Shown: positions 13,849 to 44,545 of the stretch, in pieces
Layout of the letters: every line of letters starts with the position of its first letter
Numbering within the stretch: the first letter of the stretch is position 1
DNA from: an uncultured bacterium
Lineage (GTDB): Bacteria > Cyanobacteriota > Vampirovibrionia > Gastranaerophilales > Gastranaerophilaceae
DNA: 56,040 bases
Direction: 5' to 3'
Assembly: GCA_902796585.1 (NCBI GenBank)
Contig: CADBPN010000131.1
Coordinates: forward strand, 1 to 56,040
Position numbers and translations under genes: made by a program
Notes under the pieces: generated by a model
Told to the model about the DNA's origin: nothing
The model's input: only the letters and a program-made list of their open reading frames with translations
Databases searched by the model: none

Positions 13849-13883
13849 ATATATATAAAGTTTTTTCACTTTGAGAAATTGCC
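13849..13883 (-). promoter_or_regulatory. Conserved promoter-like motif, copy 1
   Basis: GGCAA-tttctcaaagtgaaaaaa-CTTTATATATAT upstream of 13811. Confidence 0.7.
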
Positions 13884-13900
13884 TTTTTACAATCATACTT

Positions 13901-13918
13901 GTTACAATTCTTAACAAA
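13901..13918 (+). promoter_or_regulatory. HLR1-like direct repeat (1 mismatch)
   Basis: GTTACAAT-tc-TTAACAAA. Confidence 0.4.
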
Positions 13919-13964
13919 AATGTAAAAATGTTTTTAAAATCAGATGTTTACAGAGAATCGGATT

Positions 13965-15320
13965 TTAAACAATATTAGCCTTAAAATCTGACATTGCAGA
14001 TAAAGCGCGTTTTGACAGAAGCTCTGTTTTTAATTTCTTATTTTTTCTCTCTTTTTTGGGTAAATCTATCGGGGAAACGATTGCCCAATTAGAATTTATT
14101 GGCTGAGGTGGTAAGTATCTTAGCGAACCGTCTCTGGAACTTATGTGTTCAAGATGTGCTTTGTCTGTTATATAGTGCGCAATTGCGCCAAGCATTGTTT
14201 CTTGGGGATAAATAATTAAATCTTTTTGTTGAATTCGGCGAACCATGTTTATGCCTGCAATTAATCCGCCTGCAATTGATTCTGTGTATCCTTCAGTTCC
14301 TGTGATTTGACCTGCAAAGAATAAGCCTTTTCTTTCTTTTGTTTCAAATGTAGGGTTTAAGATTTCAGAGCTGTTTATAAAAGTATTTCTATGCATTACA
14401 CCGTAGCGTACTATGTTTGCATTTTCTAATCCGGGAATAGAATGTACCAATTCTTTTTGCGCTCCCCATTTTAAATTAGTCTGAAATCCAACAAGATTAA
14501 AAAGTGTTTTTGCAGAGTTATCTTGTCTTAGTTGAACAACCGCATAATTTTCTGTTCCGGTTCGTTTATCAATCAAACCTACAGGTTTCATAGGGCCGAA
14601 TCGCAATGTGTCTATACCCCTGGATGCTAATACTTCAACAGGAAGACAAGATTCAAAGAATTTTGTGTCTTTATCAACGTTGTGCTGTTCTATTTTAGGA
14701 GCATTAATCAATATATTATAGAAATTTTCATATTCTTCTTTGTTCATAGGGCAATTTATATAGGACGCTTCTCCTTTATCATATCTTGATCCCCAAAAAG
14801 CTTTGTCAAAATTTATTGAATCAATTTCTACGATAGGAGCAATTGCATCATAAAAATGCAGATGATCTTTTTTAGTAAAATTAAGTATTGAATCTGCAAG
14901 AGTATCACTTGTAAGAGGACCGGAGGCAATTATTACATAACCTTCCGGAATTTCTGCGATTTCTTCTCTTATGATTTCAATAAGCGGGTTTTCGTCTATT
15001 TTTTTTGTAACAGCTTTAGAAAAATCTTCTCTTGCAATAGCAAGTGCATTTCCGGCAGGAACAGAATATTCTTTGGCTATTTTAATGAGCTCTCCGCCAA
15101 GCATTTCCATTTCATGTTTAAGAAGTCCGCTTGCGTTTGTAACATCATAGGAACCAAGTGAATTTGAACAAACAAATTCTGCACAATCTTCGGTAACGTG
15201 TGCTCCTGTAGTTTTATAAGGACGCATTTCGTAGAGCTTAACTTTAATTCCTCTTTTTGCAACCTGTAATGCCGCTTCAGAACCTGCCAGACCGGCTCCT
15301 ATTATTTTTACTTCTTCCAT
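13965..15320 (-). CDS. trmFO: FAD/folate-dependent tRNA m5U54 methyltransferase
   Basis: IIGAGLAGSEAA, VCSNS, FGPMKPVGL, RYGVMHRNT, AGQITG.EGY. Confidence 0.96.
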   Translation of the reverse strand: MEEVKIIGAGLAGSEAALQVAKRGIKVKLYEMRPYKTTGAHVTEDCAEFVCSNSLGSYDVTNASGLLKHEMEMLGGELIKIAKEYSVPAGNALAIAREDFSKAVTKKIDENPLIEIIREEIAEIPEGYVIIASGPLTSDTLADSILNFTKKDHLHFYDAIAPIVEIDSINFDKAFWGSRYDKGEASYINCPMNKEEYENFYNILINAPKIEQHNVDKDTKFFESCLPVEVLASRGIDTLRFGPMKPVGLIDKRTGTENYAVVQLRQDNSAKTLFNLVGFQTNLKWGAQKELVHSIPGLENANIVRYGVMHRNTFINSSEILNPTFETKERKGLFFAGQITGTEGYTESIAGGLIAGINMVRRIQQKDLIIYPQETMLGAIAHYITDKAHLEHISSRDGSLRYLPPQPINSNWAIVSPIDLPKKERKNKKLKTELLSKRALSAMSDFKANIV

Positions 15321-15406
15321 AATAATTAATATACCATAGATATTACATATTAAGTTTTAAATCCTGCATGTTTATATTATAATATACTACCGAAGAGGAA
15401 AAGATA

Positions 15407-16726
15407 TTGAAAAAATCCGGATTAACATTTGCAATATTTGGAGCTCTTATATTGGGAGTTATTGTAGGCTGGTTGTTTCCTGCTTTTGCAGTGAAATTAC
15501 ATGTTTTAGCCGAGATTTTTTTGCGAATGGTTAAAATGATTATTGCACCTCTTCTTTTTGCAACTATTGTTGTTGGTATAGCAGGACATGGAGATGTAAA
15601 AAGTCTTGGCAGATTAGGCATAAAAACGATTGCATATTTTGAAATTGTTACGACAATTGCACTTTTCATAGGTTTGGGATTCGCAAATCTTTTTAAACCG
15701 GGAGAGGGCATGGTAAATATAGCAACTGCTCAAACTAATTTGACAAAAATTGCAGAAATGGCTTCCGCTACTCACCATAATTCATTTGGCGAATTGATAT
15801 TAGGCTTATTTCCGACAAGTATATTTCAGTCTATGGCAGACGGAAATTTGCTTCAAATTGTTGTTTTTTGTATTTTCTTTGCCCTTGCTGTGGTTGCTGT
15901 AGGGAAAAAAGCGCAGCCGGTTTTAGATATTCTAAACTCTGTCGCTACAATAATGTTTAAGTTTACGGAATATGTTATGTATTTTGCTCCTATTGGTATT
16001 TTTGGCGCAATTGCATATACGGTAGGTTCTAACGGAGTTGAAATTCTGTTTAATTACGGGAAGATTATTCTTTCACTTTACACTGCATTAGCCGTATTTG
16101 TTCTTTGTGTTCTTGTTGCGGCATGCAAAATTGTAAAAATTTCAATGAGAGCCTTAATAAAAGCTATCCAAGAACCTGCAATTCTTGCTTTTACTACTGC
16201 AAGTTCAGAAGCGGCACTTCCTAAAGCAATGTCAATAATGGAAAAATTTGGTGTGCCAAAATCAATCGTTGGTTTTGTTATGCCTACAGGATATACATTT
16301 AATCTTGACGGCTCAACATTGTATCTTGCAATGGCAGTAATATTTTCAACACAACTAGTCGGACATAATTTGTCTTTTGAACAACAGCTTGTAATTATGT
16401 TTGCACTGATGTTAACAAGTAAAGGTATTGCAGGTGTTCCAAGGGTTGCATTGATTGTTCTTGCAGGAACTTTGACCAGCTTTAATATTCCTATTATCGG
16501 AGTTGCTATTCTTCTCGGAATTGACCAAATCCTTGATATGGGAAGAACTACAGTGAATTTAATAGGAAATTGCGTTGCAACTGTTGTTATTGCGAGATGG
16601 GAAAATGCTTTTGATTACGAAAAAATGTCTGAATTTATAAAAATGAGAAATTTGAAAATTAATACTCTGACAAAAATTGAAAAGCACGTTAGTTTTCAAC
16701 AAGATTTTAGTAAAGTAAAAGAATAA
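15407..16726 (+). CDS. Dicarboxylate/amino acid:cation symporter (GltP/DctA family)
   Basis: AFTTASSEAALP, GYTFNLDG, SKGIAGVP, DMGRT; TTG start. Confidence 0.93.
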   Translation: MKKSGLTFAIFGALILGVIVGWLFPAFAVKLHVLAEIFLRMVKMIIAPLLFATIVVGIAGHGDVKSLGRLGIKTIAYFEIVTTIALFIGLGFANLFKPGEGMVNIATAQTNLTKIAEMASATHHNSFGELILGLFPTSIFQSMADGNLLQIVVFCIFFALAVVAVGKKAQPVLDILNSVATIMFKFTEYVMYFAPIGIFGAIAYTVGSNGVEILFNYGKIILSLYTALAVFVLCVLVAACKIVKISMRALIKAIQEPAILAFTTASSEAALPKAMSIMEKFGVPKSIVGFVMPTGYTFNLDGSTLYLAMAVIFSTQLVGHNLSFEQQLVIMFALMLTSKGIAGVPRVALIVLAGTLTSFNIPIIGVAILLGIDQILDMGRTTVNLIGNCVATVVIARWENAFDYEKMSEFIKMRNLKINTLTKIEKHVSFQQDFSKVKE

Positions 16727-16747
16727 ATTTTATATAAGGAAATAGCT

Positions 16748-19555
16748 ATGGAATACAAAAATACTTTAAATTTACCGCAAACAACATTAGAAATGAGAGC
16801 GAATGCTACTCAAAAAGAACCAAAAACTCAAGCCTTTTGGGAAGAAAATAAAATTTATGACAAAATTAATGAAAATAAAGATAAATTAAATGCGTTCATT
16901 CTGCATGACGGCCCTCCGTATTTGAGTTCAGAAAAAATTCACGTTGGTACAGCGTTAAATAAAATATTAAAAGATATTTTAATTAAGTATAAGTCAATGA
17001 AAGGGTATTATGCACCGTACGTTCCAGGATACGACGGTCATGGTTTGCCGATTGAAAATGCTGTAGTAAAAAATATTAAAGGCGGAAGACTCGCTATTAC
17101 GGAGGGTGAACTTAGGGCAAAATGCAGAGAGTTTGCTGCTAAAAACTTAAAAGGGCAAGAAGCTGAATTTAGACGATTAGGTGTTTTGGGAAATTGGGAA
17201 AATCCTTATTTAACAATATCTCCGGAGTACGAAGCAGAACAAGTAAGAGTTTTTGGTGAAATGTATAAAAAAGGTTTTGTTGAAAAAGGTTTAAAACCCG
17301 TTTATTGGTGTGCATCTTGCGAAACTGCATTAGCTGAGGCTGAAGTTGAGTACGCAGATGTTTCTTCAAAATCAATATATGTAAGATTTAAATTTGACGA
17401 AGATTCAACGGAAAGGATTAATATAAACATACTTCCGAATAATGAAAAAGATGTGTATGCAATAATTTGGACAACAACTCCTTGGACAATTCCTTCTAAT
17501 GTTGCAATTTCTATGCATCCAAGATTTGAATATCAATTATTTGAATATAAAGATGATGTGTATGTTGTTGCAAAAGATTTATTAGGCAGATTTATTGAAG
17601 ATGCAGGTTGGAATGAAGAAGAAATAAAACTTATAGATACTGCAATCGGTCAAGACTTTGAATTAATGGAGGTAGAACATCCACTGATTGACAGAAAATC
17701 AAAGATTATTTTAGGTGAGCATGTAACGCTTGATGCGGGTACCGGTTTAGTACATACTGCACCGGGTCATGGTTTAGAAGACTATGAGGTCGGTTGCAAA
17801 TACGGTATAGAAGTTCTTTCACCATTGGATAGTAAAGGATGTTGGACAGAAGAAGGAAGAATTCCTGAACTAGTCGGAGTTCCATATTATAAAGGTAATG
17901 ACATGGTAATCGATATGCTGATAGAGAAAAAAGCATTAGTTTACCAAAACGAAATAAATCACAGTTATCCGCATTGTTGGAGATGCAAACATCCTGTAAT
18001 ATACAGAGCAACTCCTCAATGGTTTGTAAAGGTTGATAAGTTCCGCGATAAAGCAATGGAAGAAATTCATAAAGTAAAATGGATTCCTTCAAGCGGTGAA
18101 AGCAGAATCGGTAACATGGTTGCAGGCCGTACTGATTGGTGTATTTCAAGACAAAGAGCCTGGGGTGTTCCGATTCCTATTTTCTATTGCGAGGAATGTG
18201 GAGAAGTTATTTGTACAGATGAAACAATTGAAAATATTGCAAAAATATTTGAAAAAGAAGGTTCGGATGCTTGGGTAAACAGAACAACAGAAGAACTTTT
18301 GCCGGAAGGTTTTGTATGCCCTAAATGCGGTAAAAAACATTTTCGTCAAGAAAAAGATATAATGGATGTTTGGTTTGATTCAGGAATTTCATGGAGAGCA
18401 GTTGTTGAAAAAAGGGCGGACGAACTTGGACATACTCCAGTAGATATGTATTTAGAAGGCTCCGATCAACACAGAGGATGGTTCCAATCTTCGCTTTTAA
18501 CATCTATTGCAACTCAAGGTAAGGCTCCGTACAAACAAGTGCTTACACATGGTTTTGTTTTTGGCGAAGACGGAAGAAAGATGTCAAAGTCTTTAGGAAA
18601 TTATATCAGACCTGATGATATAATTAAGAATTACGGCGCTGATATATTAAGACTTTGGGCAGCTTCTGTTGATTACAAAAATGATACAAAGATTGGTGAC
18701 AATATTGTAAAACAACTTGCTGAAATATTTAAGAAAACAAGAAATACAGCAAGATTTTTACTTGGAAATATCTTTGATTTCGATCCTGCTATAGATTATG
18801 TAATGTATGAAGATTTAACTCCAATCGATAAGTTTGCTTTACATAAACTAAATAAAGTTGTAGAGGAAGTAACAGAAGCTTTTGAAAATTACGAGTTTTA
18901 TAAATATTTCCAAGTTCTGCAAAATTTTGCCGCAGTAGATTTAAGTTCTTTCTATCTGGATATTGTAAAAGACAGACTTTACACTGCAGGCAAAAAATCA
19001 TTATCAAGACGTGCTTGTCAAACTGTATTATATGAAACATTCCAAACGCTTGTACGAATAGTAGCTCCTGTTATGCCATTCCAAGCTGAAGATATGTGGC
19101 AAAATACACCGGAGAATCAAAGAGGCGGTTTAGAAAGTATATTACTTGCTTCTTGGCCTAAAATTAATGATTCTTGGAATAATCCGGCTTTAGAGCAAGA
19201 TTTTACAAAGATTCTTTCAACAAGAGAAATTGTAACAAGAGCAATTGAGCCATTAAGAGCAAATAAAACAGTCGGAAGCTCTTTGGAAGTTGCAGTTTAT
19301 CTTAATACCGATTTTAATGGGTTGTTAAAAGTTAATGAAAAATATCTTGCGGATTTATATATTACTTCTCAGGCATATATTACAGAATCTGCACCTGATG
19401 GTGTATTAAACGAGTATACAGAGAACGGTATTACTGTCTGGGTAACAAAAGCAGAAGGTGAAAAATGCGAACGTTGTTGGAAATACCGTCATTTGGGTGA
19501 ACATGCAGGGCATGAAACAATATGCTCAGATTGTTATGAAGCAATACAAGAATAA
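16748..19555 (+). CDS. ileS: Isoleucine--tRNA ligase
   Basis: LHDGPPY, WTTTPWT, DWCISRQR, GSDQHRGWF, KMSKS, C-terminal Zn finger. Confidence 0.98.
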   Translation: MEYKNTLNLPQTTLEMRANATQKEPKTQAFWEENKIYDKINENKDKLNAFILHDGPPYLSSEKIHVGTALNKILKDILIKYKSMKGYYAPYVPGYDGHGLPIENAVVKNIKGGRLAITEGELRAKCREFAAKNLKGQEAEFRRLGVLGNWENPYLTISPEYEAEQVRVFGEMYKKGFVEKGLKPVYWCASCETALAEAEVEYADVSSKSIYVRFKFDEDSTERININILPNNEKDVYAIIWTTTPWTIPSNVAISMHPRFEYQLFEYKDDVYVVAKDLLGRFIEDAGWNEEEIKLIDTAIGQDFELMEVEHPLIDRKSKIILGEHVTLDAGTGLVHTAPGHGLEDYEVGCKYGIEVLSPLDSKGCWTEEGRIPELVGVPYYKGNDMVIDMLIEKKALVYQNEINHSYPHCWRCKHPVIYRATPQWFVKVDKFRDKAMEEIHKVKWIPSSGESRIGNMVAGRTDWCISRQRAWGVPIPIFYCEECGEVICTDETIENIAKIFEKEGSDAWVNRTTEELLPEGFVCPKCGKKHFRQEKDIMDVWFDSGISWRAVVEKRADELGHTPVDMYLEGSDQHRGWFQSSLLTSIATQGKAPYKQVLTHGFVFGEDGRKMSKSLGNYIRPDDIIKNYGADILRLWAASVDYKNDTKIGDNIVKQLAEIFKKTRNTARFLLGNIFDFDPAIDYVMYEDLTPIDKFALHKLNKVVEEVTEAFENYEFYKYFQVLQNFAAVDLSSFYLDIVKDRLYTAGKKSLSRRACQTVLYETFQTLVRIVAPVMPFQAEDMWQNTPENQRGGLESILLASWPKINDSWNNPALEQDFTKILSTREIVTRAIEPLRANKTVGSSLEVAVYLNTDFNGLLKVNEKYLADLYITSQAYITESAPDGVLNEYTENGITVWVTKAEGEKCERCWKYRHLGEHAGHETICSDCYEAIQE

Positions 19556-19581
19556 TATTTTAAATAAAGAGAGCTTAAATT

Positions 19582-19610
19582 AGCGGAATGGTTAATTCCG
19601 CTTTTTTTTT
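19582..19610 (+). terminator. Intrinsic terminator after ileS
   Basis: agcggaat/attccgct stem plus T tract. Confidence 0.85.
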
Positions 19611-19655
19611 ATATTGCCTTTGAAAATTTATTATTTATATTGTTTAATTTTTATT

Positions 19656-20543
19656 ATGAAAGAACAAACTTTTTTAAAAATTATAGAAAATCACATAGGA
19701 AGTGAGTATATTGGTGACGACTGTGCTTATATAAAGGATTTGGGTATTGTAGTAACGCAGGATAGTTTGGTGGAAAATATACATTTTAAAAGAGAATGGT
19801 ATACTCCGTATGAACTCGGATATAAATCTGTAGCGGTTAATATCAGTGACATTATAGCAAGCGGAGGAATTCCCAAATATGTAACAATCGGACTGTCTTT
19901 ACCGAAAGATATTGATGAGAGTTTTATCGAAGATTTTTACAAAGGTGCAAGTAAAGCATTATTCGGAGCAAAAATTATAGGCGGTGATATAACAGGATCA
20001 GAAGACAAAATCTTTATTTCAATAACCGCAATCGGCAGTGATACAAAAAGGAAGATATCTTCAAGAAAAAATGCTCATGAAGGTTATTTGATAGTAACTA
20101 AGGGAAATCTTGGTTCAAGCGCAGCCGGACTTAAAGAATTGCAAAATAACGGAAATTCGGAAAAATTAATCAATGCTCATAAGTTGCCTCAATTAGAAAT
20201 TGATTTTTCCAGACAAATTGCAGAAAACATAAAGGAAGATTACGCAATGATGGATACATCTGACGGCTTAGCAGATGCTCTCTTTAAAATTGCAGAATCA
20301 AGCGGAGTAAAAATAAAAGTTGATTATTCAAAGATTCCTCATCTTTCGAATGTATCAAAACAAGATGTTATTTTTGGAGGAGAAGACTATAAACTTATTG
20401 CAGCGTTGCCCAAAGAATTTATCAGGAATATTGATAATGCGGCAGTAATAGGTGAAGTTTTGCCTTTTGATGGTGTAAGACTTGAAATAGGGTCTGATAT
20501 ATTTAAAACTTATGATGATTTAAATGTATATAATCATTTTTAA
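19656..20543 (+). CDS. thiL: Thiamine-monophosphate kinase
   Basis: IGDDCA, AVNISDI.A.GG, IGGD, DTSDGL, GGEDY; start set at ATG 19656. Confidence 0.93.
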   Translation: MKEQTFLKIIENHIGSEYIGDDCAYIKDLGIVVTQDSLVENIHFKREWYTPYELGYKSVAVNISDIIASGGIPKYVTIGLSLPKDIDESFIEDFYKGASKALFGAKIIGGDITGSEDKIFISITAIGSDTKRKISSRKNAHEGYLIVTKGNLGSSAAGLKELQNNGNSEKLINAHKLPQLEIDFSRQIAENIKEDYAMMDTSDGLADALFKIAESSGVKIKVDYSKIPHLSNVSKQDVIFGGEDYKLIAALPKEFIRNIDNAAVIGEVLPFDGVRLEIGSDIFKTYDDLNVYNHF

Positions 20544-20549
20544 GTAATA

Positions 20550-22016
20550 TTATTCACTTTTAAAAATCCATAAATCTTTTTGGAATAATACAAGGAATGG
20601 AATTAACTCCAAACGTCCTGCAAGCATATCTATTATAAATATTAATTTTGTAAGTGGTTGAAGTGTTGCAAAATTTCCCATAGGACCTATTATATTACCG
20701 AATCCAGGGCCCAAGTTTCCCATAGAAGAAATGGAGCCGATAAGAGCAATTGTTGTATTTTTTTCTATAATTCCGACAACAAGAGCAGAAATTGCAATCA
20801 AGCCGAAATAAAAAGATACAAACATTATTGTTTGATAGAGGATATCTTTAGGAACGGAGTAATTACCTATTTTAATATTATAAACAGCTTTTGGATGAAG
20901 TATTTTCATCATTTCCGATTTCATTATTTTAAATACAAGCATCCATCTTGTTACTTTAAGCCCGCCGCCGGCAGAGCTTGCACAGCTTCCGAAAAGGATT
21001 ATGATGAATAATAGAATTTTACTGACATAATCCCATTTAGAGTAGTCAACACTGCAAAATCCTGATGAAGATACCAATGATGTTACGTTGAAAAATGAAT
21101 GTATTAAACTGTTAAATAAATCATAATGCATATTTGTAAAGAGCGAAACAGCAAGTAAAACAGAAATTAAAAACACTCCGCCGAAATAAACTTTAAATTC
21201 TTCATTTTTAAAAAGCAAGAACGGATTTAATTTTGACCAAGCTTTGTGCTGCAAGTTGAAATTTGCACCTGCAAAAAACATAAAAAATGTTATTATCCAC
21301 ATTATAGAATGTGAATATGAAGAAATACTGTCAGCGTTAGGAGAAAATCCGCCGCCGGACAGAGATGACATAGAGTGGCAAACTGCCTCGAATGAATTCA
21401 TTCCGCATATCTTAAGAGCAATAAATTCCAGTATAGTAAGTCCTGCGTATATTTTCCACAGAGAAGCTGCGGTACTTTTTATCCTTGGTGTGAATTTTTC
21501 TTCTGTAGGGCCCGGCGCTTCCGCAAAAAACAATTGTCTTCCCGCAATAGCAAATTGAGGAAGAACCGCTATGAATAATACGATAATTCCCATCCCGCCA
21601 AGCCATTGAGTAAATGAGCGCCAAAAAAACATTGCATGCGGGTAATTAAAATGAGTTAAAGTTGTAGCACCGGTAGTTGTGATTCCTGCCATTGCCTCAA
21701 ATATAGAGTTCAGAGGTGTAAGTCCGAAAAACATATATGGAATTGTGGCGAAAAGTCCTGCAAAAATCCAAGAAAATGTTACAACAGTAAGTCCTTCTGA
21801 TTTTTTAATATCATTAATAGATTTTATTTTATGAGAACTGTTTATAATTTTTTTTATTGTAACAGAAATCATTAGAGCAGCCGCTGAGGTTGCAAAAAAA
21901 GGCAATATTGAAGAATATTCGTGATAACATATTGCGACAATAATCGGTATAAGCAATGCTAAGCTAAAATATGTCATTACAAGAGAAAAAGTATATGCTA
22001 AATAAGATAATCTCAT
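20550..22016 (-). CDS. trkH: Trk potassium uptake membrane subunit
   Basis: TTTGAT, QWLGGMGII, GGGLK, GNLGPG, GRLE. Confidence 0.95.
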   Translation of the reverse strand: MRLSYLAYTFSLVMTYFSLALLIPIIVAICYHEYSSILPFFATSAAALMISVTIKKIINSSHKIKSINDIKKSEGLTVVTFSWIFAGLFATIPYMFFGLTPLNSIFEAMAGITTTGATTLTHFNYPHAMFFWRSFTQWLGGMGIIVLFIAVLPQFAIAGRQLFFAEAPGPTEEKFTPRIKSTAASLWKIYAGLTILEFIALKICGMNSFEAVCHSMSSLSGGGFSPNADSISSYSHSIMWIITFFMFFAGANFNLQHKAWSKLNPFLLFKNEEFKVYFGGVFLISVLLAVSLFTNMHYDLFNSLIHSFFNVTSLVSSSGFCSVDYSKWDYVSKILLFIIILFGSCASSAGGGLKVTRWMLVFKIMKSEMMKILHPKAVYNIKIGNYSVPKDILYQTIMFVSFYFGLIAISALVVGIIEKNTTIALIGSISSMGNLGPGFGNIIGPMGNFATLQPLTKLIFIIDMLAGRLELIPFLVLFQKDLWIFKSE

Positions 22017-23357: not shown

Positions 23358-23418
23358 AGGCTTATTTAACCCTAAATAATGTAATAAGTCAATTTTTATA
23401 AAAATTTATATATTTATT

Positions 23419-23450
23419 GGGAACTTTTTTATTTAATTTTCGTCTATATA
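23419..23450 (+). promoter_or_regulatory. ECF/sigmaE-type promoter
   Basis: GGAACTT-16nt-TCTATA upstream of the sigma gene. Confidence 0.6.
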
Positions 23451-23489
23451 AGTGAAGAGAGATTTTGATTGAATAGATGGAGGATTATA

Positions 23490-24416: not shown

Positions 24417-24443
24417 ATATGTTTATGTTAAACTTAATTTACT

Positions 24444-25784: not shown

Positions 25785-25850
25785 AATAGAATAAACACTT
25801 TACAAGGGTTCTGTTTATGTTAGCATGAAATCATATAAGGAGATATTATA

Positions 25851-26156: not shown

Positions 26157-26223
26157 GGACGTTTTAGCTTCCGAAAATGTATAATTTACCTGATAGAATT
26201 AATTAATATATGAGGAAAATCTT

Positions 26224-26637: not shown

Positions 26638-26640
26638 GGG

Positions 26641-27284: not shown

Positions 27285-27300
27285 GTTTTAAATTTTTACC

Positions 27301-27392
27301 AAAGAAAAAAGCCGCAATCCTGCGGCATTAACTCGTTAGATAAAGGAGTGGAGGAGAAAATAAAGAAAAGAGATTATACTTGTATATACCAC
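27301..27392 (-). ncRNA. Candidate ~90-nt sRNA with CU-rich anti-SD core
   Basis: Minus-strand terminator GCCGCA-ggat-TGCGGC-T6 with no minus-strand CDS to terminate; CTCCTCCACTCCTTT core; upstream promoter-like motif. Confidence 0.55.
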
Positions 27393-27427
27393 AATATATA
27401 TATAATATAACACTTATAGATAAAATT

Positions 27428-27445
27428 GTTACAAAAGTTTACAAA
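27428..27445 (+). promoter_or_regulatory. HLR1-like direct repeat
   Basis: GTTACAAA-ag-TTTACAAA. Confidence 0.5.
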
Positions 27446-27529
27446 AGAGCGTATGAGAAAAATTTGTAATTTTCCACAGACTCAATAGCATTTGTTGACA
27501 CATCAACTTTTATTTTTTATTATAAAAAT

Positions 27530-35365: not shown

Positions 35366-35375
35366 AGGAGTTCTA

Positions 35376-35972: not shown

Positions 35973-35999
35973 TAATACTTAAAATTTGTTAATAATTTT

Positions 36000-36034
36000 G
36001 GCAATTTTATTCTAAAAAATTACTTTATATATAT
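36000..36034 (+). promoter_or_regulatory. Conserved promoter-like motif, copy 2
   Basis: GGCAA-ttttattctaaaaaatta-CTTTATATATAT upstream of 36059. Confidence 0.7.
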
Positions 36035-36058
36035 AGAGGATTTTTAGGATAATTTCTT

Positions 36059-37393: not shown

Positions 37394-37401
37394 GGGGTAA
37401 A

Positions 37402-37809: not shown

Positions 37810-37818
37810 GGTAATTTG

Positions 37819-38643
37819 TTAGTGAATCATGTACGTTGCGTTATTCCCTAAAACTTTGTCTTTTAGTCGTTTAAAACCTTTTCCGTAAATATATTTCATT
37901 TGTTCAACAAGGTTTTCTTCTACGTCAATTAAGTACATATCATGAACTATAAATTCTTTAATTATGAATACAATTCCTTGATTTTTTGTCCAAATAATAT
38001 TGGTATCTTCAGTGTCATTTTTTAAAGATGAAATTTTTCCGATAACTCCTTCATTGTCATCAGCTGCAATTATTACCATTCTGCCGCCTAGAGAAAGTTC
38101 TATATCTCTCGCAAAAGCATGTGCAAAAATCAAACCGAATCTGGAGTTTAAGTTATCATACCCTACAATTCGAATTTCTACATTTCTATTGTATGCATTC
38201 AAAAGTTCTTGCTCAAAGATTTTGAAATCTTGTGCCCAAACTTCCATATATATCTCGCGTTTAGCGTTTTTAATTACATCTATAATTTTATCTTGAATAT
38301 TCTGTTTACCGGTGATTGTAATTATTGGTTCATTGTAATTATCTTTAACTTCCGGAAGATGTTTTTCCAAATAATTAATAGTTGAATTCATCTTTTTTTG
38401 ATATGCAGAAGTGAGTTGCTTTGGTTTTATTGGTGTATAGCTGATAGGTTTTGTATTGGTTGAGACTACAATATTTTTTTCTTCCAAAACCTTTAATGTG
38501 TCATAAGTTCTGGATTGAGGTATATTTGCAAGTTTTGCAACTTCATATCCTGTTGCAGGATACTTTTTTAGTAGGGCAATATAAACTTTTGCCTCATAAG
38601 TATTAAAGCCAATGCTTTTAAGCTTTTCAACCAAATCTGCCAT
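37819..38643 (-). CDS. TrmB-family transcriptional regulator
   Basis: GFNTYEAKVYIALL, TGYEVAK..IPQSRTY HTH; IKNAKREI. Confidence 0.92.
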   Translation of the reverse strand: MADLVEKLKSIGFNTYEAKVYIALLKKYPATGYEVAKLANIPQSRTYDTLKVLEEKNIVVSTNTKPISYTPIKPKQLTSAYQKKMNSTINYLEKHLPEVKDNYNEPIITITGKQNIQDKIIDVIKNAKREIYMEVWAQDFKIFEQELLNAYNRNVEIRIVGYDNLNSRFGLIFAHAFARDIELSLGGRMVIIAADDNEGVIGKISSLKNDTEDTNIIWTKNQGIVFIIKEFIVHDMYLIDVEENLVEQMKYIYGKGFKRLKDKVLGNNATYMIH

Positions 38644-38750
38644 ATTTTGATTATATCATAATTCAAAAAGCATTGTAATAATATTTCGAATTAACTACAT
38701 GTTAATTGATTTATGATACAATATCATTAATCCAACTATAGGAAACATCT

Positions 38751-39812
38751 ATGGGAGATGAAGATAAACAATTTGATGCCACACCTCAAAAGCTTGAGAG
38801 AGCGAGAAAAGAAGGTCAGGTAGTAAAATCTAAGGATGTGTCAACGGCACTTTCTCTTCTTGTTATGTTTACTTTTATTAATCTCCTTGCTCCGGTCATG
38901 TGGCGGCTTATAGTCGGTTTGTATAAAACTTTGTATGAGCAGATTCCCAATAAACATTTGTCTGATATAGGCATAACTTATATTCTTACAAATGCAATAG
39001 TTCCTTCTGTTGCAATTATTGGTTCAATTCTTTTTGTTGCTGCTTTTATTGCAATATTGGGTGATTTTATGCAGGTAGGGCCGCTTGTTGCAACAGCTCC
39101 GCTTGTGCCAAAGCTTGATAAACTTAACCCGACCAAATATTTTAAAAATTTATTTCAGGTTAAAACTTTGTTTGAATTAGGGAAAAACATTGTAAAAGTT
39201 GCAGTATTAGGTCTTGTTGGCTGGTCTGTTTACAGTTCTCATTTGGAAAGCATTTTGATGTTGGCTTCTATTGATAATAACTTTGCCGTTATGATAGAGT
39301 TCGGCAAACTTATTGTAGAATTTATTTACAAAGCGTGTATTGCCTTTTTAATTATAGCAGCAGCTGATTATGGTGTTACGAAATGGAAGTTTTTAAAAGA
39401 TCAAAAAATGTCTTTTAAAGAGATTAAAGATGAATATAAAAACTCTGAAGGAGATCCGCATGTAAAGGCGGCTCTTCGGCAAAGGCGTATGCAAATGCTT
39501 CAGCAAGGCGCAATGGATTCTGTTCCGGAGGCAGATTTTGTTGTAAGAAATCCAACCCACGTAGCTTGTGCTCTGAAATATGATGCCGAAACAATGCAAT
39601 CTCCTACTTTGACAGCAAAAGGTACTGAGCTGATTGCTCAAAAAATAATAAAGATAGCTCAAGAACATAATGTTCCGATTATTGATAATGCACCGGTTGC
39701 TCGTGCGCTTTTCAGAATGGTCGATTTGAATCAGGAAATTCCTCCCGAATTGTATAAAGCAGTAGCTGAAATATTACTGTTTGTTTACGGACTTAAAAAT
39801 AAGCAGGGGTAA
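38751..39812 (+). CDS. flhB: Flagellar/type III export switch protein FlhB (SctU)
   Basis: ATPQKL..AR.EGQV.KS, KMS..EIKDEYK.SEGDP, intact NPTH autocleavage site, EIP.ELY.AVAEIL. Confidence 0.95.
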   Translation: MGDEDKQFDATPQKLERARKEGQVVKSKDVSTALSLLVMFTFINLLAPVMWRLIVGLYKTLYEQIPNKHLSDIGITYILTNAIVPSVAIIGSILFVAAFIAILGDFMQVGPLVATAPLVPKLDKLNPTKYFKNLFQVKTLFELGKNIVKVAVLGLVGWSVYSSHLESILMLASIDNNFAVMIEFGKLIVEFIYKACIAFLIIAAADYGVTKWKFLKDQKMSFKEIKDEYKNSEGDPHVKAALRQRRMQMLQQGAMDSVPEADFVVRNPTHVACALKYDAETMQSPTLTAKGTELIAQKIIKIAQEHNVPIIDNAPVARALFRMVDLNQEIPPELYKAVAEILLFVYGLKNKQG

Positions 39813-39824
39813 AGGCGAACTTTG

Positions 39825-39848
39825 TAAAGGGATAAAGGGGTAAAGAGA
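39825..39848 (+). repeat. 8-bp tandem array TAAAG(G/A)G(A/G)
   Basis: taaaggga-taaagggg-taaagaga between flhB and the sigma gene. Confidence 0.55.
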
Positions 39849-39963
39849 TAACTTTTTTCGGATGTTTTATGAAGTTCAAATTCATATAAATGATGTACTT
39901 AAAAATCTTGAAAAATATTTAAAAACACGATAATATAGAGTAGGTTTGGTTTAATAAGAAAAG

Positions 39964-40668
39964 ATGGATACAAAGACTTTAATCAATCAATACATTGGTA
40001 TTGTACAAAAAATCGCAAAGATTGAGCACAGACGTATACCTAACCATATGGTAGAAGCCGAGGAATTGGTTAGTATAGGTATTATTGCGATTCAGTCATT
40101 GGTTAAAGATAAAACAGAAGAACAGCTTGCCCGTTATAACGAGGCTTACATAGGTACGGCCGTAAAATGGGCTATAAGAAATGAATTAAGACACCGTTAT
40201 AAATGGTATACGTTGAAACATAAATCAGATGATGAAGGCTCTGATTCATCAATTGGAGATGGATATATTTCTCAAACCGGCAGTGATTCTTCAGATGACG
40301 AAGACATGGGTTTTGCAATTTCTCCGACAAAGGTCAGAGAAGCTGTGTATGAGACGATTTTGTCTATAGATGGGCTTGCTGCTGCAGCCACTGATAATGC
40401 ATCACCGTTTGATTTTATAAAAGATCCTTCAGCTATGCCTGATGAACAGGCAGAAATAGTTGAAATGAGTAAACTTATTAAACAAGCTATTGCAAAATTA
40501 CCCCAAAAAGAAAGAACTGTTGTTGAGTACAGATTTTATCGTAATATGCAGGCAAAAGACATTGCTACAACAATCGGACTTTCTCCTTCAAGAGTTACAA
40601 GGATTATCCAATTTTCATTAAACCAAATTAGAGAATATTTAAAATCAAGAGGAAGAACGGATTATTAG
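39964..40668 (+). CDS. Divergent FliA/WhiG (sigma28)-like sigma factor
   Basis: IVQKIA..RIP.HMVEAEELVSIG, AIRNELR, LPQKER...IGLSPSRVTRI; adjacent to flhB. Confidence 0.8.
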   Translation: MDTKTLINQYIGIVQKIAKIEHRRIPNHMVEAEELVSIGIIAIQSLVKDKTEEQLARYNEAYIGTAVKWAIRNELRHRYKWYTLKHKSDDEGSDSSIGDGYISQTGSDSSDDEDMGFAISPTKVREAVYETILSIDGLAAAATDNASPFDFIKDPSAMPDEQAEIVEMSKLIKQAIAKLPQKERTVVEYRFYRNMQAKDIATTIGLSPSRVTRIIQFSLNQIREYLKSRGRTDY

Positions 40669-40676
40669 TCTTGTAA

Positions 40677-42530
40677 TTATGGTCTTATTGATAGAGTTGC
40701 CATAATGTTGTTACTGTTACGGTTCGGATTTACAATATCACTGGATTTTGTGTAATTCAATGCTATGCTGGTTTTACCTTTATTTATTCCTACAGTTGTT
40801 GAAAAAGTTGTGTTTTTTTCTAAATCTTGGTTCCAAAGCCCCAAATTTAAATGCCTTTTTTTATAATTTAATCCAACATTTCCAAAAAATGAGATTTTTT
40901 GATTTTTGGGTGTGTATTGAGTATATAATTGACCGCCAATTCCGGTATTTGTTGATACTTGATTTTTCACAACATAACCGTCTATTTTTGCACCAATATT
41001 CAAATTATTATCGACTTTATAATTTACCTGATGATTTGTTCCTAATTTATATCCTGGTTGAAATGATACAAAAGGAGATTCATGACTAAGGTTTAAATCT
41101 GATATAGCGCCTAAAGTAACAGAATTAGTCATAAAATGATTTCTTCCAAAAGATTGCAGTTCTATTTTATCTTCCAAAAGACTCCTAAAATCACCAGCTA
41201 AATGAGAACCATTTATGGTTATTCCTGTCAAAAGTGATCCTTGTAAAGTATTTAATAATTTAGAATTTTCATTTTCGCATATCTTCGATTCTATTCCCAT
41301 CTTGCACCTTATTAAATTTGATAAATATGAACATTTCACTGCATCGTTTGTGGATTCTAAAGATGGCACGCTTCTTACAGTTGTGCTTACTTTTGAACCA
41401 CTGTCTGAATTTGTAACTTCTAATCTATTACTTACTATATCTGATATATAGTTTCGGTAATCTTCTCGTATTTGATAATCTGTACTATCAGTAGTACCGT
41501 TGATATAAGAAGAGAAAGCTTGAAAACCAAAATATTTTTTATTATTTTTATCACTTTTTACTTTATTTAATTCAAAACCTAAACCAAAACTATGCGATTT
41601 GCTAAATAATTCAGTATTATTACTTTTTCTTATTTCAGCTTTGTATATTTTTTCAGATTTTGTATTTTCTATATTATTAACTAAAGAAAGTTCTGTATTG
41701 AATACAATGTTTCCAATATTGGAAACTGAAAAATTTGTACTTAGTGTAGAATCATTTAAAATATTGTCTGCACATACAGTTTCGTTTTCATAATTTACTT
41801 TATCGAATCTATTTCCAAAAGCGGCATCTTTAACAGCAGCATATTTTTGGTATGAAATTTTACCGTCTGCGATTTGGTAATAACCCAAAATGTCAATATT
41901 AGAACCTTTTTTATGTATTTGTGCTATTGCATCTTCTATTGTTTGTGCATTATTTATTATTATATTTTTACCGTAATTATTAAAAACATATTTTCCGTCA
42001 TCCAATTTATATATCAAGGTTACATGACCATTACTATTCTGTTCTGCACAATAAATAAGACTTGAAGGAATATTGCATTTTTCTAATGCGGTCATTATTA
42101 ATTGATGAATAGGCCCGCAAATTGCTCCCTCGATTTTTTCATTTTCCTTAGCATTAATAAATTTTTCTAAAATTTCATCCGGAGAACCATCTATTCCCGA
42201 ACGATTATGATTAGAATCATAATGATTAACTTCATTTTCTAAAAGATTTGACAGACTTGAGATCAATAGTTCTGGATTATTCTTGTTATTTTCTATATAT
42301 TGCAATAAATAATTAAATACAGCAGTAGAATTATTACCATTATTATAGACATTTGCTAAATCATCAATATTAATTCCTTTTAAATTTAGTTCTGTTTCAA
42401 AATTTTCATCAGTTATTATATTTGTAGGAATAAAAGTTGCACTATCTATCTCTCCGGTATATGATCTATTTTCATTAAAAAAATTTACATTACAGTTGAT
42501 TTTGATTTTTTTAGGATTATTATCAGGCAT
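40677..42530 (-). CDS. 617-aa orphan: possible transglutaminase/papain-like domain plus beta-barrel-like C-terminus
   Basis: AICG...GHVTLIY...VFNNYG; alternating amphipathic strands in the C-terminal half; GGAGAG RBS. Confidence 0.7.
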   Translation of the reverse strand: MPDNNPKKIKINCNVNFFNENRSYTGEIDSATFIPTNIITDENFETELNLKGINIDDLANVYNNGNNSTAVFNYLLQYIENNKNNPELLISSLSNLLENEVNHYDSNHNRSGIDGSPDEILEKFINAKENEKIEGAICGPIHQLIMTALEKCNIPSSLIYCAEQNSNGHVTLIYKLDDGKYVFNNYGKNIIINNAQTIEDAIAQIHKKGSNIDILGYYQIADGKISYQKYAAVKDAAFGNRFDKVNYENETVCADNILNDSTLSTNFSVSNIGNIVFNTELSLVNNIENTKSEKIYKAEIRKSNNTELFSKSHSFGLGFELNKVKSDKNNKKYFGFQAFSSYINGTTDSTDYQIREDYRNYISDIVSNRLEVTNSDSGSKVSTTVRSVPSLESTNDAVKCSYLSNLIRCKMGIESKICENENSKLLNTLQGSLLTGITINGSHLAGDFRSLLEDKIELQSFGRNHFMTNSVTLGAISDLNLSHESPFVSFQPGYKLGTNHQVNYKVDNNLNIGAKIDGYVVKNQVSTNTGIGGQLYTQYTPKNQKISFFGNVGLNYKKRHLNLGLWNQDLEKNTTFSTTVGINKGKTSIALNYTKSSDIVNPNRNSNNIMATLSIRP

Positions 42531-42543
42531 ATACTCTCTCCTG

Positions 42544-42577
42544 TATATATAAAGTATTTAATCTTTATAAAATTGCC
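42544..42577 (-). promoter_or_regulatory. Conserved promoter-like motif, copy 3
   Basis: GGCAA-ttttataaagattaaata-CTTTATATATA upstream of 42530. Confidence 0.7.
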
Positions 42578-42604
42578 TTCTTTTTTATAATTTTTTTCAA
42601 GAAT

Positions 42605-42622
42605 TTTACAAAAATTTACAAT
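42605..42622 (+). promoter_or_regulatory. HLR1-like direct repeat
   Basis: TTTACAAA-aa-TTTACAAT. Confidence 0.5.
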
Positions 42623-42632
42623 TGTAGTGTGG

Positions 42633-42667
42633 AAAACTCAAAAATTGGTAGATTTTTGAGTTTTTTT
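42633..42667. other. 13-bp inverted repeat in divergent intergenic region
   Basis: aaaactcaaaaat-tggtag-atttttgagtttt. Confidence 0.6.
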
Positions 42668-42863
42668 GAACGCGATTTTAGGTGTGTAAAAATCAGGCTG
42701 TATGTGAGATAGTATACAATTTGGTTTGAATATGTTCCTGAAAGTCTGCGAAAAAAAATTGTAATTTTTCCGCCGACTCATTGCATAATTGATTCTTTAT
42801 TTATCTACAATTAGGCAATATCTTTTTTCATTTTATTTTTTATTATTATTATGGGTAAAGAAG

Positions 42864-43433
42864 ATGCAAAATGTCGATTATAAAAAAGAAGAAATCTCCG
42901 CTTTAATCCAATATTCACAACAAGGAAATATAAAAGCTTTAGAAGAACTAATAAGACGTATACAAAAAGATGTATTTGCGTTGTTTAGTTATCTTGTGGA
43001 TAAAAGACAGGATATTTCTGATTTAACTCAAGAAGCATTGTTAAAAATTGCAAAGAATATAAAAAGTTTACATGAAATTAAAAGTTTTAAATCTTGGATG
43101 AATCAAATTGCTGCTAATGTTTTTCACGATTATGTAAAAAAGAATAAATCAGACAAGAATATAGAACACGATAATGAAAAATTATTAGAAATAAAGGATA
43201 AAGCGGGTTGTGAGCCTGGAGAAAAATGTTTGTATTCAGAAATTGATAAAGTTATAAAAGCGGCATTACTGGATTTACCCGGAAAATTACGTATAGTTAT
43301 TATTTTAAGAGAATTTGAAGGTTTAAGTTATGAAGAAATATCTAAAATAACAGAAAGTAGCATTGGGACTGTAAAGTCAAGGATTGCCAGAGCAAGAACG
43401 AGGCTGCAAAATCAATTAAGAGAATTTATTTAA
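42864..43433 (+). CDS. ECF sigma factor (RpoE/SigG-like)
   Basis: DLTQEA, FKSWM..IA.N, LREFEGLSYEEI, GTVKSRIARAR; start set at ATG 42864. Confidence 0.93.
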   Translation: MQNVDYKKEEISALIQYSQQGNIKALEELIRRIQKDVFALFSYLVDKRQDISDLTQEALLKIAKNIKSLHEIKSFKSWMNQIAANVFHDYVKKNKSDKNIEHDNEKLLEIKDKAGCEPGEKCLYSEIDKVIKAALLDLPGKLRIVIILREFEGLSYEEISKITESSIGTVKSRIARARTRLQNQLREFI

Positions 43434-43446
43434 AAAGGAGAAAAGA

Positions 43447-43992
43447 ATGAAAATTACTTGTGTTCAAATGGATGCACTTATGACTTTTTATATGGAAGGA
43501 GAGCTTTCTCCTTCCTTAAAATCAAAGGTAGAAGAACATTTAGAAGAGTGTCAAACTTGCAGGGCAAAATATAATATTATTACTTCAATTTTTGGTGATA
43601 TGAAAAATTCAGTAAATAATGGATATGATGAATTATTTACAACTAAAGCTACTCCGTCTCATCAATACAAAAGTTTTAAGTCCAATCTTTCTGCTTATGT
43701 TGATAATGAACTTCCTCCAAATGAGAATATAAAAATTAAAAAATATACAATAAATAATAAGAATGCCAGAAATGATTTAGAAGAAACATATAAGATTAGA
43801 AAGCTTATGAAAAATTCTTATAAAAAAACAAAATTAAACACAAAGTCGGACTTTGTAAAAAATATAATGAAACAAATCGATGCAGAAGAAAAAAATAATT
43901 TTGGAATAAATCCTTTAATTAAAGTTTCTGTAGCTTTTGTTATGACAGTTCTGATATTGAGCGCAATAATTATTTTTTCACTATCAATGTAA
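43447..43992 (+). CDS. Zinc-binding anti-sigma factor (zf-HC2) with duplicated domain and C-terminal TM
   Basis: HLEECQTC (HxxxCxxC); second LSAYVDNEL unit; follows the ECF gene. Confidence 0.88.
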   Translation: MKITCVQMDALMTFYMEGELSPSLKSKVEEHLEECQTCRAKYNIITSIFGDMKNSVNNGYDELFTTKATPSHQYKSFKSNLSAYVDNELPPNENIKIKKYTINNKNARNDLEETYKIRKLMKNSYKKTKLNTKSDFVKNIMKQIDAEEKNNFGINPLIKVSVAFVMTVLILSAIIIFSLSM

Positions 43993-44027
43993 TAAATATA
44001 TTATTAAAGCGCTGTAAAATTAAGCAT

Positions 44028-44056
44028 AAAAAAAAGGAATTCTTTGCAGAATTCCT
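44028..44056 (-). terminator. Minus-strand intrinsic terminator
   Basis: AGGAATTCT-gcaa-AGAATTCCT-T7. Confidence 0.8.
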
Positions 44057-44154
44057 ATGGTTGTTTTCCTTTTAGTGTGTTTACTACTCGATTAATTTCT
44101 CGTGTCCAGTAGTTTTTCCTCGTGTTTATTGTTCCTCGCGTCTTATCCCATTTT

Positions 44155-44177
44155 AGCCGTACTGCCGGCTTTTTTTT
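44155..44177 (+). terminator. Plus-strand intrinsic terminator
   Basis: AGCCG-tactgc-CGGCT-T7. Confidence 0.65.
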
Positions 44178-44277
44178 AATCCTTTTCCCTTTTTCCGCTT
44201 GTCGGTCAAAGAATCAATGGGTAGATTATGTGCTGAGGTACATGAATCTACCTCATATATCTTTGTCCTAATTTTTT

Positions 44278-44466
44278 TTAATCAAGTAATGCTTCGAGGA
44301 TTCTGGCATTTTTGTCTGCCAACGAATTTTGTCTTACTTGAGAACGTGTAATATAGCTTCTTAACGCTTCACGAATTAATTCTGAACGTGAACGTGATTC
44401 ATTTTCCGCTACTTCATCGATTTTGCCTAAAAAGCTTTCAGGCATTGAAATTAATACTCTTGCCAT
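44278..44466 (-). CDS. Ribbon-helix-helix (CopG-family) regulator
   Basis: RVLISMPESFL..ID......SRSELIREAL; AGGAG RBS. Confidence 0.9.
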   Translation of the reverse strand: MARVLISMPESFLGKIDEVAENESRSRSELIREALRSYITRSQVRQNSLADKNARILEALLD

Positions 44467-44510
44467 AGATTTGTCTCCTTTTATATTCTGTTTACTTTTT
44501 TATGCCTCGT

Positions 44511-44545
44511 ATATATATAAAGTATTTTGCTTTTAAAAAATTGCC
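44511..44545 (-). promoter_or_regulatory. Conserved promoter-like motif, copy 4
   Basis: GGCAA-ttttttaaaagcaaaata-CTTTATATATAT upstream of 44466. Confidence 0.7.

What the first reader, a model, noticed from the sequence alone, without database searches (positions are those of the whole stretch)
13849..44545. Fixed-spacing promoter motif GGCAA-N18-CTTTATATA defining a candidate regulon
Seen: four copies (13849-13883 -, 36000-36034 +, 42544-42577 -, 44511-44545 -), each with an exact 18-nt spacer starting TTT and ending A, always in the sense orientation and 13-45 nt before the start codon. Targets are three orphan genes and an RHH regulator, not housekeeping genes. Variants with the same spacing: AACAA-N18-TATTATATA (sRNA, 27396-27430) and GGGAA-N18-GTCTATATA (sigma gene, 23419-23450). 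It does not match the canonical sigma70, sigma28 or sigma54 consensus. Inference: promoter of an alternative sigma; in-window candidates are the divergent FliA-like factor and the ECF factor.
Basis: partly seen in the sequence, partly recalled or inferred. Interest (0 to 1): 0.85.

Follow-up and report, generated by a model that had tools for sequence, protein, structure and literature searches.

The report
Rewired flagellar-type promoter in Melainabacteria
This fixed-spacing DNA motif sits in front of about 95 mostly unknown genes in a non-photosynthetic cyanobacterium and in many of its relatives, and is likely a promoter read by a lineage-specific, rewired copy of the flagellar sigma factor, which would give a way to read gene regulation in this mostly uncultured group.

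Summary
The motif is real. Four exact copies lie in the window (0 in 100 shuffles) and 36 in the genome, all at one spacing; about 96 intergenic sites fit once variants are included. 85 of 94 scored sites face a gene, a median 33 nt away. It occurs in 60 of 60 relatives and in four further families of the class. A conserved pyrimidine-purine pair marks a likely start site; the same rule puts this genome's separate canonical sigma28 class (37 sites) in the published register. Both classes carry an HLR1 (RpaB-type) repeat near -60. Outside the order, 16 of 16 genomes with the flhB-linked divergent FliA-like sigma pair hold 5-36 sites; 27 of 27 without it hold 0-2. One motif-positive genome has no ECF and no SigF-like sigma. 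The sigma has swapped the residues by which sigma28 reads its promoter. Best reading: promoter of this sigma28-derived subfamily (0.72). No transcription data were available, and the carriers form one clade.

The parts
13848..13883 (-). Motif copy 1 (likely promoter; inferred start site 13848), 37 nt before a 715-aa orphan gene
   Evidence: 40.2 bits
13901..13918 (-). HLR1-like direct repeat (reverse orientation, 1 mismatch), centred at -61.5
11664..13811 (-). Target: 715-aa protein, no Pfam hit
36000..36035 (+). Motif copy 2 (inferred start site 36035), 24 nt before a 444-aa orphan gene; no good HLR1-like repeat (best has 4 mismatches)
   Evidence: 37.6 bits
36059..37393 (+). Target: 444-aa protein, no Pfam hit
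42542..42577 (-). Motif copy 3 (inferred start site 42542, first base of an AGGAG ribosome-binding site), 12 nt before a 617-aa orphan gene
   Evidence: 38.0 bits
42605..42622 (-). HLR1-like direct repeat (reverse, 0 mismatches), centred at -71.5
40677..42530 (-). Target: 617-aa protein, no Pfam hit
44510..44545 (-). Motif copy 4 (inferred start site 44510), 44 nt before the RHH gene
   Evidence: 49.2 bits
44559..44576 (-). HLR1-like direct repeat (forward, 1 mismatch), centred at -57.5
44278..44466 (-). Target: 62-aa CopG-type ribbon-helix-helix protein; homologues in other families keep a motif-like sequence upstream
39964..40668 (+). Divergent sigma28-derived sigma factor (paralog a), leading candidate for the cognate sigma; paralog b is on contig C166
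38751..39812 (+). flhB, directly upstream of the sigma here and in 30 of 30 related loci
42864..43433 (+). ECF sigma with downstream zf-HC2 anti-sigma (43447-43992); considered and rejected as cognate sigma
23419..23454 (+). Not this class: sigmaE-type site (GGAACTT-N15-GTCTA) before a group-2-like sigma gene
   Evidence: sigmaE consensus recalled
27395..27430 (-). Not this class: AT-rich look-alike failing G2 and T25, overlapped by a perfect HLR1-like repeat at 27428-27445

Best explanation
The motif is likely the -35/-10 promoter (GCAATT, 14 nt, then TACTTTAT or GTTTTTAT) of a lineage-specific sigma factor subfamily derived from flagellar sigma28, encoded as a pair: paralog a right after flhB (window 39964-40668) and paralog b elsewhere. 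Shown: fixed spacing, sense orientation, distance to genes, conservation in the class, co-occurrence with the sigma pair, residue swaps in the sigma, and an HLR1-like repeat at a fixed upstream position. Inferred: RNA polymerase with this sigma starts at the purine 36 nt from the first G; region 4 reads GCAAT instead of TAAAG because the sigma28 specificity glutamine has become arginine; region 2 reads a T-rich -10 because the sigma28 residues that read GCCG are replaced; an OmpR-family regulator of RpaB type activates from about -60, as it would at the canonical sigma28 promoters of this genome. The output is a programme of about 95 mostly orphan proteins without Sec-type N-termini, run in parallel with the canonical sigma28 class (37 sites, including fliD) and a third class (7 sites, four before flagellin-like genes). 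Which paralog reads which subtype is not resolved.
For: Position: 85 of 94 sites face a gene within 400 nt, 2 meet an antisense gene first, 7 have no called gene (6 near contig ends); 65 of 94 lie 10-60 nt from a start, against 529 of 3000 random intergenic positions. Start site: position 35 is a pyrimidine and 36 a purine in 36 of 36 seed sites not selected on those positions; the same rule puts the sigma28 class at (-15)GCCG, as in the P. aeruginosa structure (PMC12784957 passages); one target ATG begins exactly at position 36. Distribution: outside the order, 16 of 16 genomes with paralog a have 5-36 strict sites and 27 of 27 without it have 0-2; this was predicted. Elimination: G101 (93% complete, 3 contigs, 15 sites) has only RpoD, one group-2 sigma, FliA and the pair; canonical FliA has its own 37-site class; the group-2 clade keeps sigma70's FSTYATWW and RERIRQIE-type recognition helices. 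Residues: P. aeruginosa R80, D87, R97 and Q228 (PMC12784957 sections 19-21) are kept in this genome's FliA but map to A66, N73, L84 and R213 in paralog a; A66 and N73 are invariant and R213 at least 90% conserved in 42 sequences. The motif lies upstream of paralog b in 5 of 13 loci outside the order. HLR1-like repeat with at most 2 mismatches: 67 of 95 sites, 30 of 37 sigma28 sites, 98 of 639 other intergenic stretches.
Against: No transcript, start site or binding was measured. The motif-positive genomes form one clade, so the 16/27 split is one evolutionary event, and the group-2 sigma clade of contig C106 has the same distribution in the 13 genomes put on the tree. Two same-order genomes (G042, G045; both 78% complete) carry 23-25 sites but gave no paralog-a hit, and G045 gave neither paralog. 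There is no motif upstream of paralog a in 30 loci or of flhB in the window, and none at 17 bits or more upstream of paralog b in 19 same-order loci. An outgroup member in motif-negative G079 also has the region-4 arginine. The R97 mapping crosses a one-residue insertion. The melted-base register of the -10 element is ambiguous because of the TA run. Neither OmpR-type regulator found in the genome reaches the RpaB family cut-off (205 and 204 bits against 330).
Confidence: 0.72

Rival explanations
1. The motif is a promoter of the clade-specific group-2 sigma (contig C106 type), using TG as an extended -10 and an activator in place of a normal -35.
For: This group-2 clade is present in all seven motif-positive genomes on the tree plus G000 and in none of the six negative ones. 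The older form of the motif has TG at -15/-14 from the inferred start.
Against: The clade keeps the sigma70 residues for TTGACA and TANNNT; the motif has no TTG, and has T at the inferred -11 in 78 of 78 sites. A separate TTG-N-TAnnAT class with a spacing peak exists in this genome (71 sense hits at the peak against 10-38 at other spacings).
Confidence: 0.1
2. The motif is the operator of a DNA-binding regulator (or a shared activator site) overlapping ordinary promoters, not a sigma-recognised element.
For: No start-site data. An RHH regulator family follows the motif in many genomes.
Against: It is asymmetric, strictly oriented, two-part with an unconserved spacer of invariant length, ends in a pyrimidine-purine pair, and mirrors the layout of the sigma28 class base for base, including the upstream repeat.
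Confidence: 0.07
3. Canonical FliA reads both its normal promoters and this class (relaxed or cofactor-switched specificity).
For: FliA is present in all motif-positive genomes examined; the two classes share layout and upstream repeat.
Against: FliA keeps all sigma28 specificity residues and its class is sharply canonical with no intermediates; FliA is also present in motif-negative G080, G082 and G094.
Confidence: 0.06
4. One of the ECF sigmas (window 42864-43433 or contig C171), or the SigF-like sigma, reads the motif.
For: The geometry equals that of the sigmaE-type site at 23419; copy 3 lies head to head with the ECF gene.
Against: The window's ECF is in 20 of 21 motif-negative genomes tested and was not found in 4 motif-positive ones; G101 has no ECF and no SigF-like sigma by two Pfam domains; no motif upstream of the ECF in 24 loci.
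Confidence: 0.05

Closest known systems
sigma28/FliA promoter (TAAAG / GCCGATAA) and FliA-WhiG sigma factors
   Same: Closest solved relatives by profile and fold are FliA and WhiG; same layout from activator site to -35 to start site as this genome's own sigma28 class; conserved melting tyrosine (Y62 = P. aeruginosa Y76); linkage to a flagellar export gene.
   Different: -35 is GCAAT, -10 is T-rich without GCCG; four specificity residues are swapped; the region-3 helix-turn-helix is replaced by a low-confidence acidic linker; 81 bits against a FliA/WhiG cut-off of 189.6; none of the 64 targets scanned is a known flagellar gene.
ECF (group 4) promoters of sigmaE type (consensus recalled)
   Same: Same element spacing, T at the inferred -11, T-tract after -35, two-domain architecture of the candidate sigma.
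   Different: AAT rather than AAC, CTT/TTT rather than GTC; candidate sigma branches with group 3, not ECF; no adjacent anti-sigma; regulon of about 95 rather than a few genes.
Cyanobacterial HLR1 / RpaB activation site
   Same: Pair of (G/T)TTACA(T/A)(T/A) octamers 2 nt apart, either orientation, centred at -58 to -62 in 50 of 84 sites, inside the -66 to -45 activating window of Synechocystis (PMC6525291 section 8).
   Different: Here it precedes group-3-type promoters of orphan and flagellar genes in a non-photosynthetic organism; no regulator passes the RpaB family cut-off.

Membership tests
Alternative-sigma promoter | Two conserved elements at fixed spacing | tested here: met
   36 at spacer 18, 0-1 at eight other spacers; spacer +1 gives 0-5 per genome in 69 genomes against 11-75 in 26 same-order genomes
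Alternative-sigma promoter | Intergenic, sense orientation, upstream of genes | tested here: met
   92 of 94 intergenic, 85 sense, 2 antisense-first
Alternative-sigma promoter | Transcript 5' end just downstream | not testable with these tools
   No RNA run holding the stretch was listed; only an indirect pyrimidine-purine signal
Alternative-sigma promoter | Transcription depends on one sigma factor | not testable with these tools
   Only co-occurrence, elimination and residue mapping
sigma28 (FliA) promoter | TAAAG -35 and GCCGATAA -10 | tested here: not met
   Consensus differs at both elements; a canonical class exists separately
sigma70-family sigma factor (candidate protein) | Region 2 and region 4 domains | tested here: met
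   TIGR02937 68.7 bits over cut-off 42.9; full-length profile match to Aquifex FliA, E 4.9e-16; helical domains at residues 3-90 and 159-228. Pfam region 2 itself is not hit
FliA/WhiG subfamily (candidate protein) | Family score and conserved promoter-reading residues R80, D87, R97, Q228 | tested here: not met
   81.3 bits against 189.6; A66, N73, L84, R213 instead
FliA/WhiG subfamily (candidate protein) | Folded region 3 | tested here: not met
   Residues 87-154 below pLDDT 50 and the alignment lacks the region-3 helices
ECF regulon | Cognate ECF co-occurs and is usually autoregulated | tested here: not met
RpaB/HLR1 activation | HLR1 repeat centred between -66 and -45 | tested here: met
   (relative to inferred start sites)
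RpaB/HLR1 activation | RpaB ortholog present | tested here: inconclusive
   Two OmpR-type regulators; RpaB is best or second-best model but below cut-off; genome 87% complete; PMC4040986 reports rpaA/rpaB orthologs in Melainabacteria (passage)

The most novel reading that the evidence does not exclude
The flhB-linked sigma pair is the switch for a lineage-wide programme of about 100 orphan proteins that are exported through the flagellar type III channel for a purpose other than swimming (surface structures, attachment or host/prey contact), in a multi-sigma cascade gated by an RpaB-type regulator whose binding site predates oxygenic photosynthesis. Basis: flhB linkage in 30 of 30 loci, 1 of 78 targets with a hydrophobic N-terminus against 259 of 1517 other proteins, N-termini richer in Ser/Asn/Gln/Pro, one orphan family shared with the sigma28 class, 11 flagellin-domain genes.
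Probability: 0.25. Interest if true: 0.85.

Novelty: new variant of a known kind. Interest (0 to 1): 0.66.

Why it matters
Vampirovibrionia (Melainabacteria) are the closest non-photosynthetic relatives of cyanobacteria, common in animal guts and almost all uncultured, and I found nothing on their promoters in the library searched. The motif groups about 5% of this genome's genes, nearly all orphans, into one likely co-regulated set that can be listed in any genome of the clade by a pattern search. It pairs a new promoter with a sigma subfamily whose reading residues are visibly rewired, which is a natural experiment on how group-3 sigma specificity changes and is directly testable in E. coli or in vitro. 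The shared HLR1-like repeat suggests that the RpaB-type site was used for flagellar and orphan programmes before it was tied to light response.

Tried and rejected
Repeat or mobile-element end: rejected, 92 of 93 sites with full flanks are non-redundant at 80% identity. Housekeeping promoter: rejected, a separate sigma70-like class exists and targets are orphans. Autoregulation of paralog a or of the ECF: not found. Two patterns were mis-spaced by me: one base too long; kept as a spacing control; uninformative; repeated correctly. Paralog a/b split of the GCAATT and TGAAATT subtypes: considered, not supported, since the TGAAATT subtype was found only in the two same-family genomes of five tested (13 and 4 sites, 0-1 elsewhere) while both paralogs are class-wide. 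The maximum-likelihood tree did not finish; the tree cited is FastTree on 99 sequences and 288 columns and does not include every ECF or LuxR-type hit. Photosynthetic and other phylum members: 52 of 54 had 0-13 heterogeneous matches in 2.5-8.4 Mb; two had 20-21 and were not examined. Rfam gave nothing at gathering score in the window and only sub-threshold hits near the two putative small RNAs. Earlier scan findings: none returned. The Atlas search on one sigma28-class orphan family gave only hypothetical Melainabacteria clusters. No complex prediction was run.
Full report
Observation. The four copies are at the stated places and strands, each with an 18-nt spacer that starts TTT and ends A; none of 100 shuffles gave a single match. 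The window is contig C131 of a 1.75-Mb, 32.5% G+C, 87% complete assembly. Its closest titled relatives are mostly Gastranaerophilales / Melainabacteria. Genome-wide the exact pattern occurs 36 times at spacer 18 and 0-1 times at each of eight other spacers. A weight matrix converges on 79 sites at 20 bits or more; five column-shuffled matrices give 0-1. Three matrices together give 96 intergenic sites: 65 GCAATT...TACTTTATA, 13 GCAATT...GTTTTTATA, 18 TGAAATT...TACTTTATA. They are not copies of a repeat: 92 of 93 with full flanks are non-redundant.

Position. With my own simple gene calls (1768 genes), 92 of 94 sites at 12.5 bits or more are intergenic, 85 face a gene within 400 nt (median 33 nt), 2 meet an antisense gene first and 7 have no called gene, 6 of them near contig ends; 65 of 94 are 10-60 nt from a start, against 529 of 3000 random intergenic positions, 1008 of which meet an antisense gene first. 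Counting from the first G, position 35 is a pyrimidine and 36 a purine in 36 of 36 seed sites that were not selected on them and in 78 of 78 matrix sites. Several ribosome-binding sites begin at position 36 and one ATG begins exactly there. I infer the start site at 36. This is inference: no RNA run was listed.

Other promoter classes. After masking the motif, the strongest remaining two-part signal is a canonical sigma28 promoter, 37 sites, one before fliD. Its pyrimidine-purine pair places the G of GCCG at -15, the register in the P. aeruginosa open complex (PMC12784957, passages and sections 19-21 read), which checks the start-site rule. A third class, GTTA-N14-TGTGGAAT, has 7 sites, four before flagellin-domain genes, and a sigma70-like class shows a spacing peak. 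The 23419 site matches the sigmaE consensus as I recall it.

Upstream repeat. Both the motif class and the sigma28 class carry a direct repeat matching cyanobacterial HLR1. With at most 2 mismatches it is found at 67 of 95 and 30 of 37 sites, against 98 of 639 other intergenic stretches of equal length; it is centred at -58 to -62 in 50 of 84 and at -60 in 26 of 34 sites with at most 3 mismatches. In Synechocystis the activating window is -66 to -45 (PMC6525291, passages and section 8 read). Two OmpR-type regulators exist; RpaB is their best or second-best model but both fall well under its cut-off. PMC4040986 (passages) reports rpaA/rpaB orthologs in this group. Activation by an RpaB-type protein is therefore inferred, not shown.

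Distribution. The strict pattern is in 60 of 60 relatives, with reversed-pattern controls of 0-1. Upstream of RHH homologues the -10 reads GTTTTTAT in other families; a pattern covering both forms finds 11-75 sites in 26 of 26 same-order genomes, and the same pattern one base longer finds 0-5 in all 69 genomes. In 54 other members of the phylum, 52 had 0-13 mixed matches in much larger genomes and two had 20-21, not examined.

Which sigma. The assembly has RpoD, three group-2-like sigmas, a SigF-like sigma, FliA, two ECFs and two divergent FliA-like proteins. Paralog a follows an FlhB-type gene in 30 of 30 loci (one confirmed by BLAST). It is present in four families outside the order, which predicted the motif there. 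Searches confirmed this, one search showed only background in five genomes lacking it, and one search gave the full count: 16 of 16 carriers have 5-36 strict sites, 27 of 27 non-carriers 0-2. The window's ECF is in 20 of 21 motif-negative genomes tested, was not found in four positive ones, and has no motif upstream in 24 loci. G101 (93% complete, 3 contigs, 15 sites) has five sigmas only: RpoD, one group-2, FliA and the pair. On a FastTree of 99 sequences from G000 and 13 genomes, the pair forms a clade within group 3 that is confined to motif-positive genomes; four negative genomes hold a single outgroup member. The group-2 clade of contig C106 has the same distribution, but keeps sigma70's recognition residues, which do not fit a promoter without TTG and with T at the inferred -11. 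The motif lies upstream of paralog b at 17 bits or more in 5 of 13 loci outside the order and 0 of 19 inside; the reverse-strand control reached that level once in 32.

The protein. A profile of 42 sequences matches FliA and WhiG best; the model has helical domains at 3-90 and 159-228 with a low-confidence linker at 87-154 (mean pLDDT 68), and its best fold match is Aquifex FliA (E 2.7e-6, TM 0.34). It passes the sigma70 superfamily cut-off but not FliA/WhiG (81 against 189.6 bits). Through two alignments, P. aeruginosa Y76 is kept (Y62), while R80 (reads -12G), D87, R97 (reads the extended -10 GC) and Q228 (reads -35) become A66, N73, L84 and R213; this genome's FliA keeps all of them. The changes fall where the motif departs from the sigma28 consensus. 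That arginine would favour the G of GCAAT is my inference from known sigma-DNA contacts (recalled).

Targets. Of 64 targets scanned (60 picked from the top of about 85 plus the four in the window), 51 have no Pfam hit at E 0.001 and 6 pass a curated cut-off (SLT, decarboxylase, ABC1 kinase, HD, AAA, RHH); none is a flagellar family. In distant families 26 of 29 downstream ORFs have no hit, and one short orphan family follows the motif in both G000 and G089. One of 78 targets has a hydrophobic N-terminus, against 259 of 1517 other proteins, by a crude hydropathy rule. That is compatible with cytoplasmic proteins or with flagellar-type export; it does not decide.

Against the reading. Nothing was measured; the carriers are one clade; two 78%-complete same-order genomes have the motif without a paralog-a hit, one without either paralog; paralog a shows no autoregulation; one outgroup member also has the region-4 arginine; the -10 register is ambiguous; the TGAAATT subtype is narrow in range and cannot be assigned to paralog b.

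Literature. Searches for Gastranaerophilales + sigma factor (0 papers), Melainabacteria + promoter + motif, Melainabacteria + flagell + type III secretion, Vampirovibrio + sigma, Vampirovibrionia/transcription/FliA, Melainabacteria + flagella + Gastranaerophilales + genome and non-photosynthetic cyanobacteria/sigma factors showed, in listings and abstract starts, no description of this promoter or sigma. The main texts of PMC4451040 and PMC4040986 hold no occurrence of sigma, FliA or promoter; their supplements were not read and could list the genes. Subscription papers are not in the library.

Verdict. A real, clade-wide promoter-like class (about 0.93 that it is a promoter), most likely read by a rewired sigma28-derived subfamily (0.72). 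New variant of a known kind; interest 0.66.

Noticed in passing
genome-wide, none in the window (e.g. G000:C35:3577 +): Canonical sigma28 class, cTAAAGTTTT-N9-TGCCGWTA, 37 sites; includes fliD but most targets look like orphans, among them a multi-copy family starting MGMAASQAR.
   Followed up: partly
G000:C137, C119, C36, C161, C74, C17, C8: Third promoter-like class GTTA-N14-TGTGGAAT, 7 exact sites at one spacing, four before flagellin-domain genes and one before a Flg_bb_rod-domain gene; resembles SigB/SigF promoters (recalled), so the SigF-like sigma on C47 is the likely reader.
   Followed up: partly
window 44025-44270 (-): Structured non-coding stretch after the RHH gene, ending in a terminator-like hairpin; folding z-score -4.8; no Rfam family; a 30-nt piece recurs at three other places in the genome.
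   Followed up: partly
window 27300-27395 (-): Short possible small RNA with a C/U-rich anti-Shine-Dalgarno-like stretch and a GC hairpin plus U-run; its promoter is not of the class studied here.
   Followed up: partly
window about 27447-27482 and 42742-42779: Imperfect palindrome of about 37 nt (arms ending in GACTC around a TGT centre), 9 intergenic copies in the genome, here upstream of a MarR-like gene and of the ECF sigma.
   Followed up: no
window 55533-55551 (+) and genome-wide: Short REP-like hairpin repeat (AGGTTGGGTGAAACCCAAC type), about 21 intergenic copies, often in pairs.
   Followed up: no
genome-wide: Eleven flagellin-N-domain genes and five rod/hook-domain genes in a 1.75-Mb assembly.
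   Followed up: no
window 23419-23454 (+): The only clear sigmaE-type site found by simple patterns lies before a group-2-like sigma gene, suggesting an ECF-to-group-2 cascade.
   Followed up: partly
L250 (G079) and L247 (G080): In motif-negative families a single outgroup member of the sigma subfamily also follows flhB but has other residues in region 2, so it may read a different, unknown promoter.
   Followed up: no
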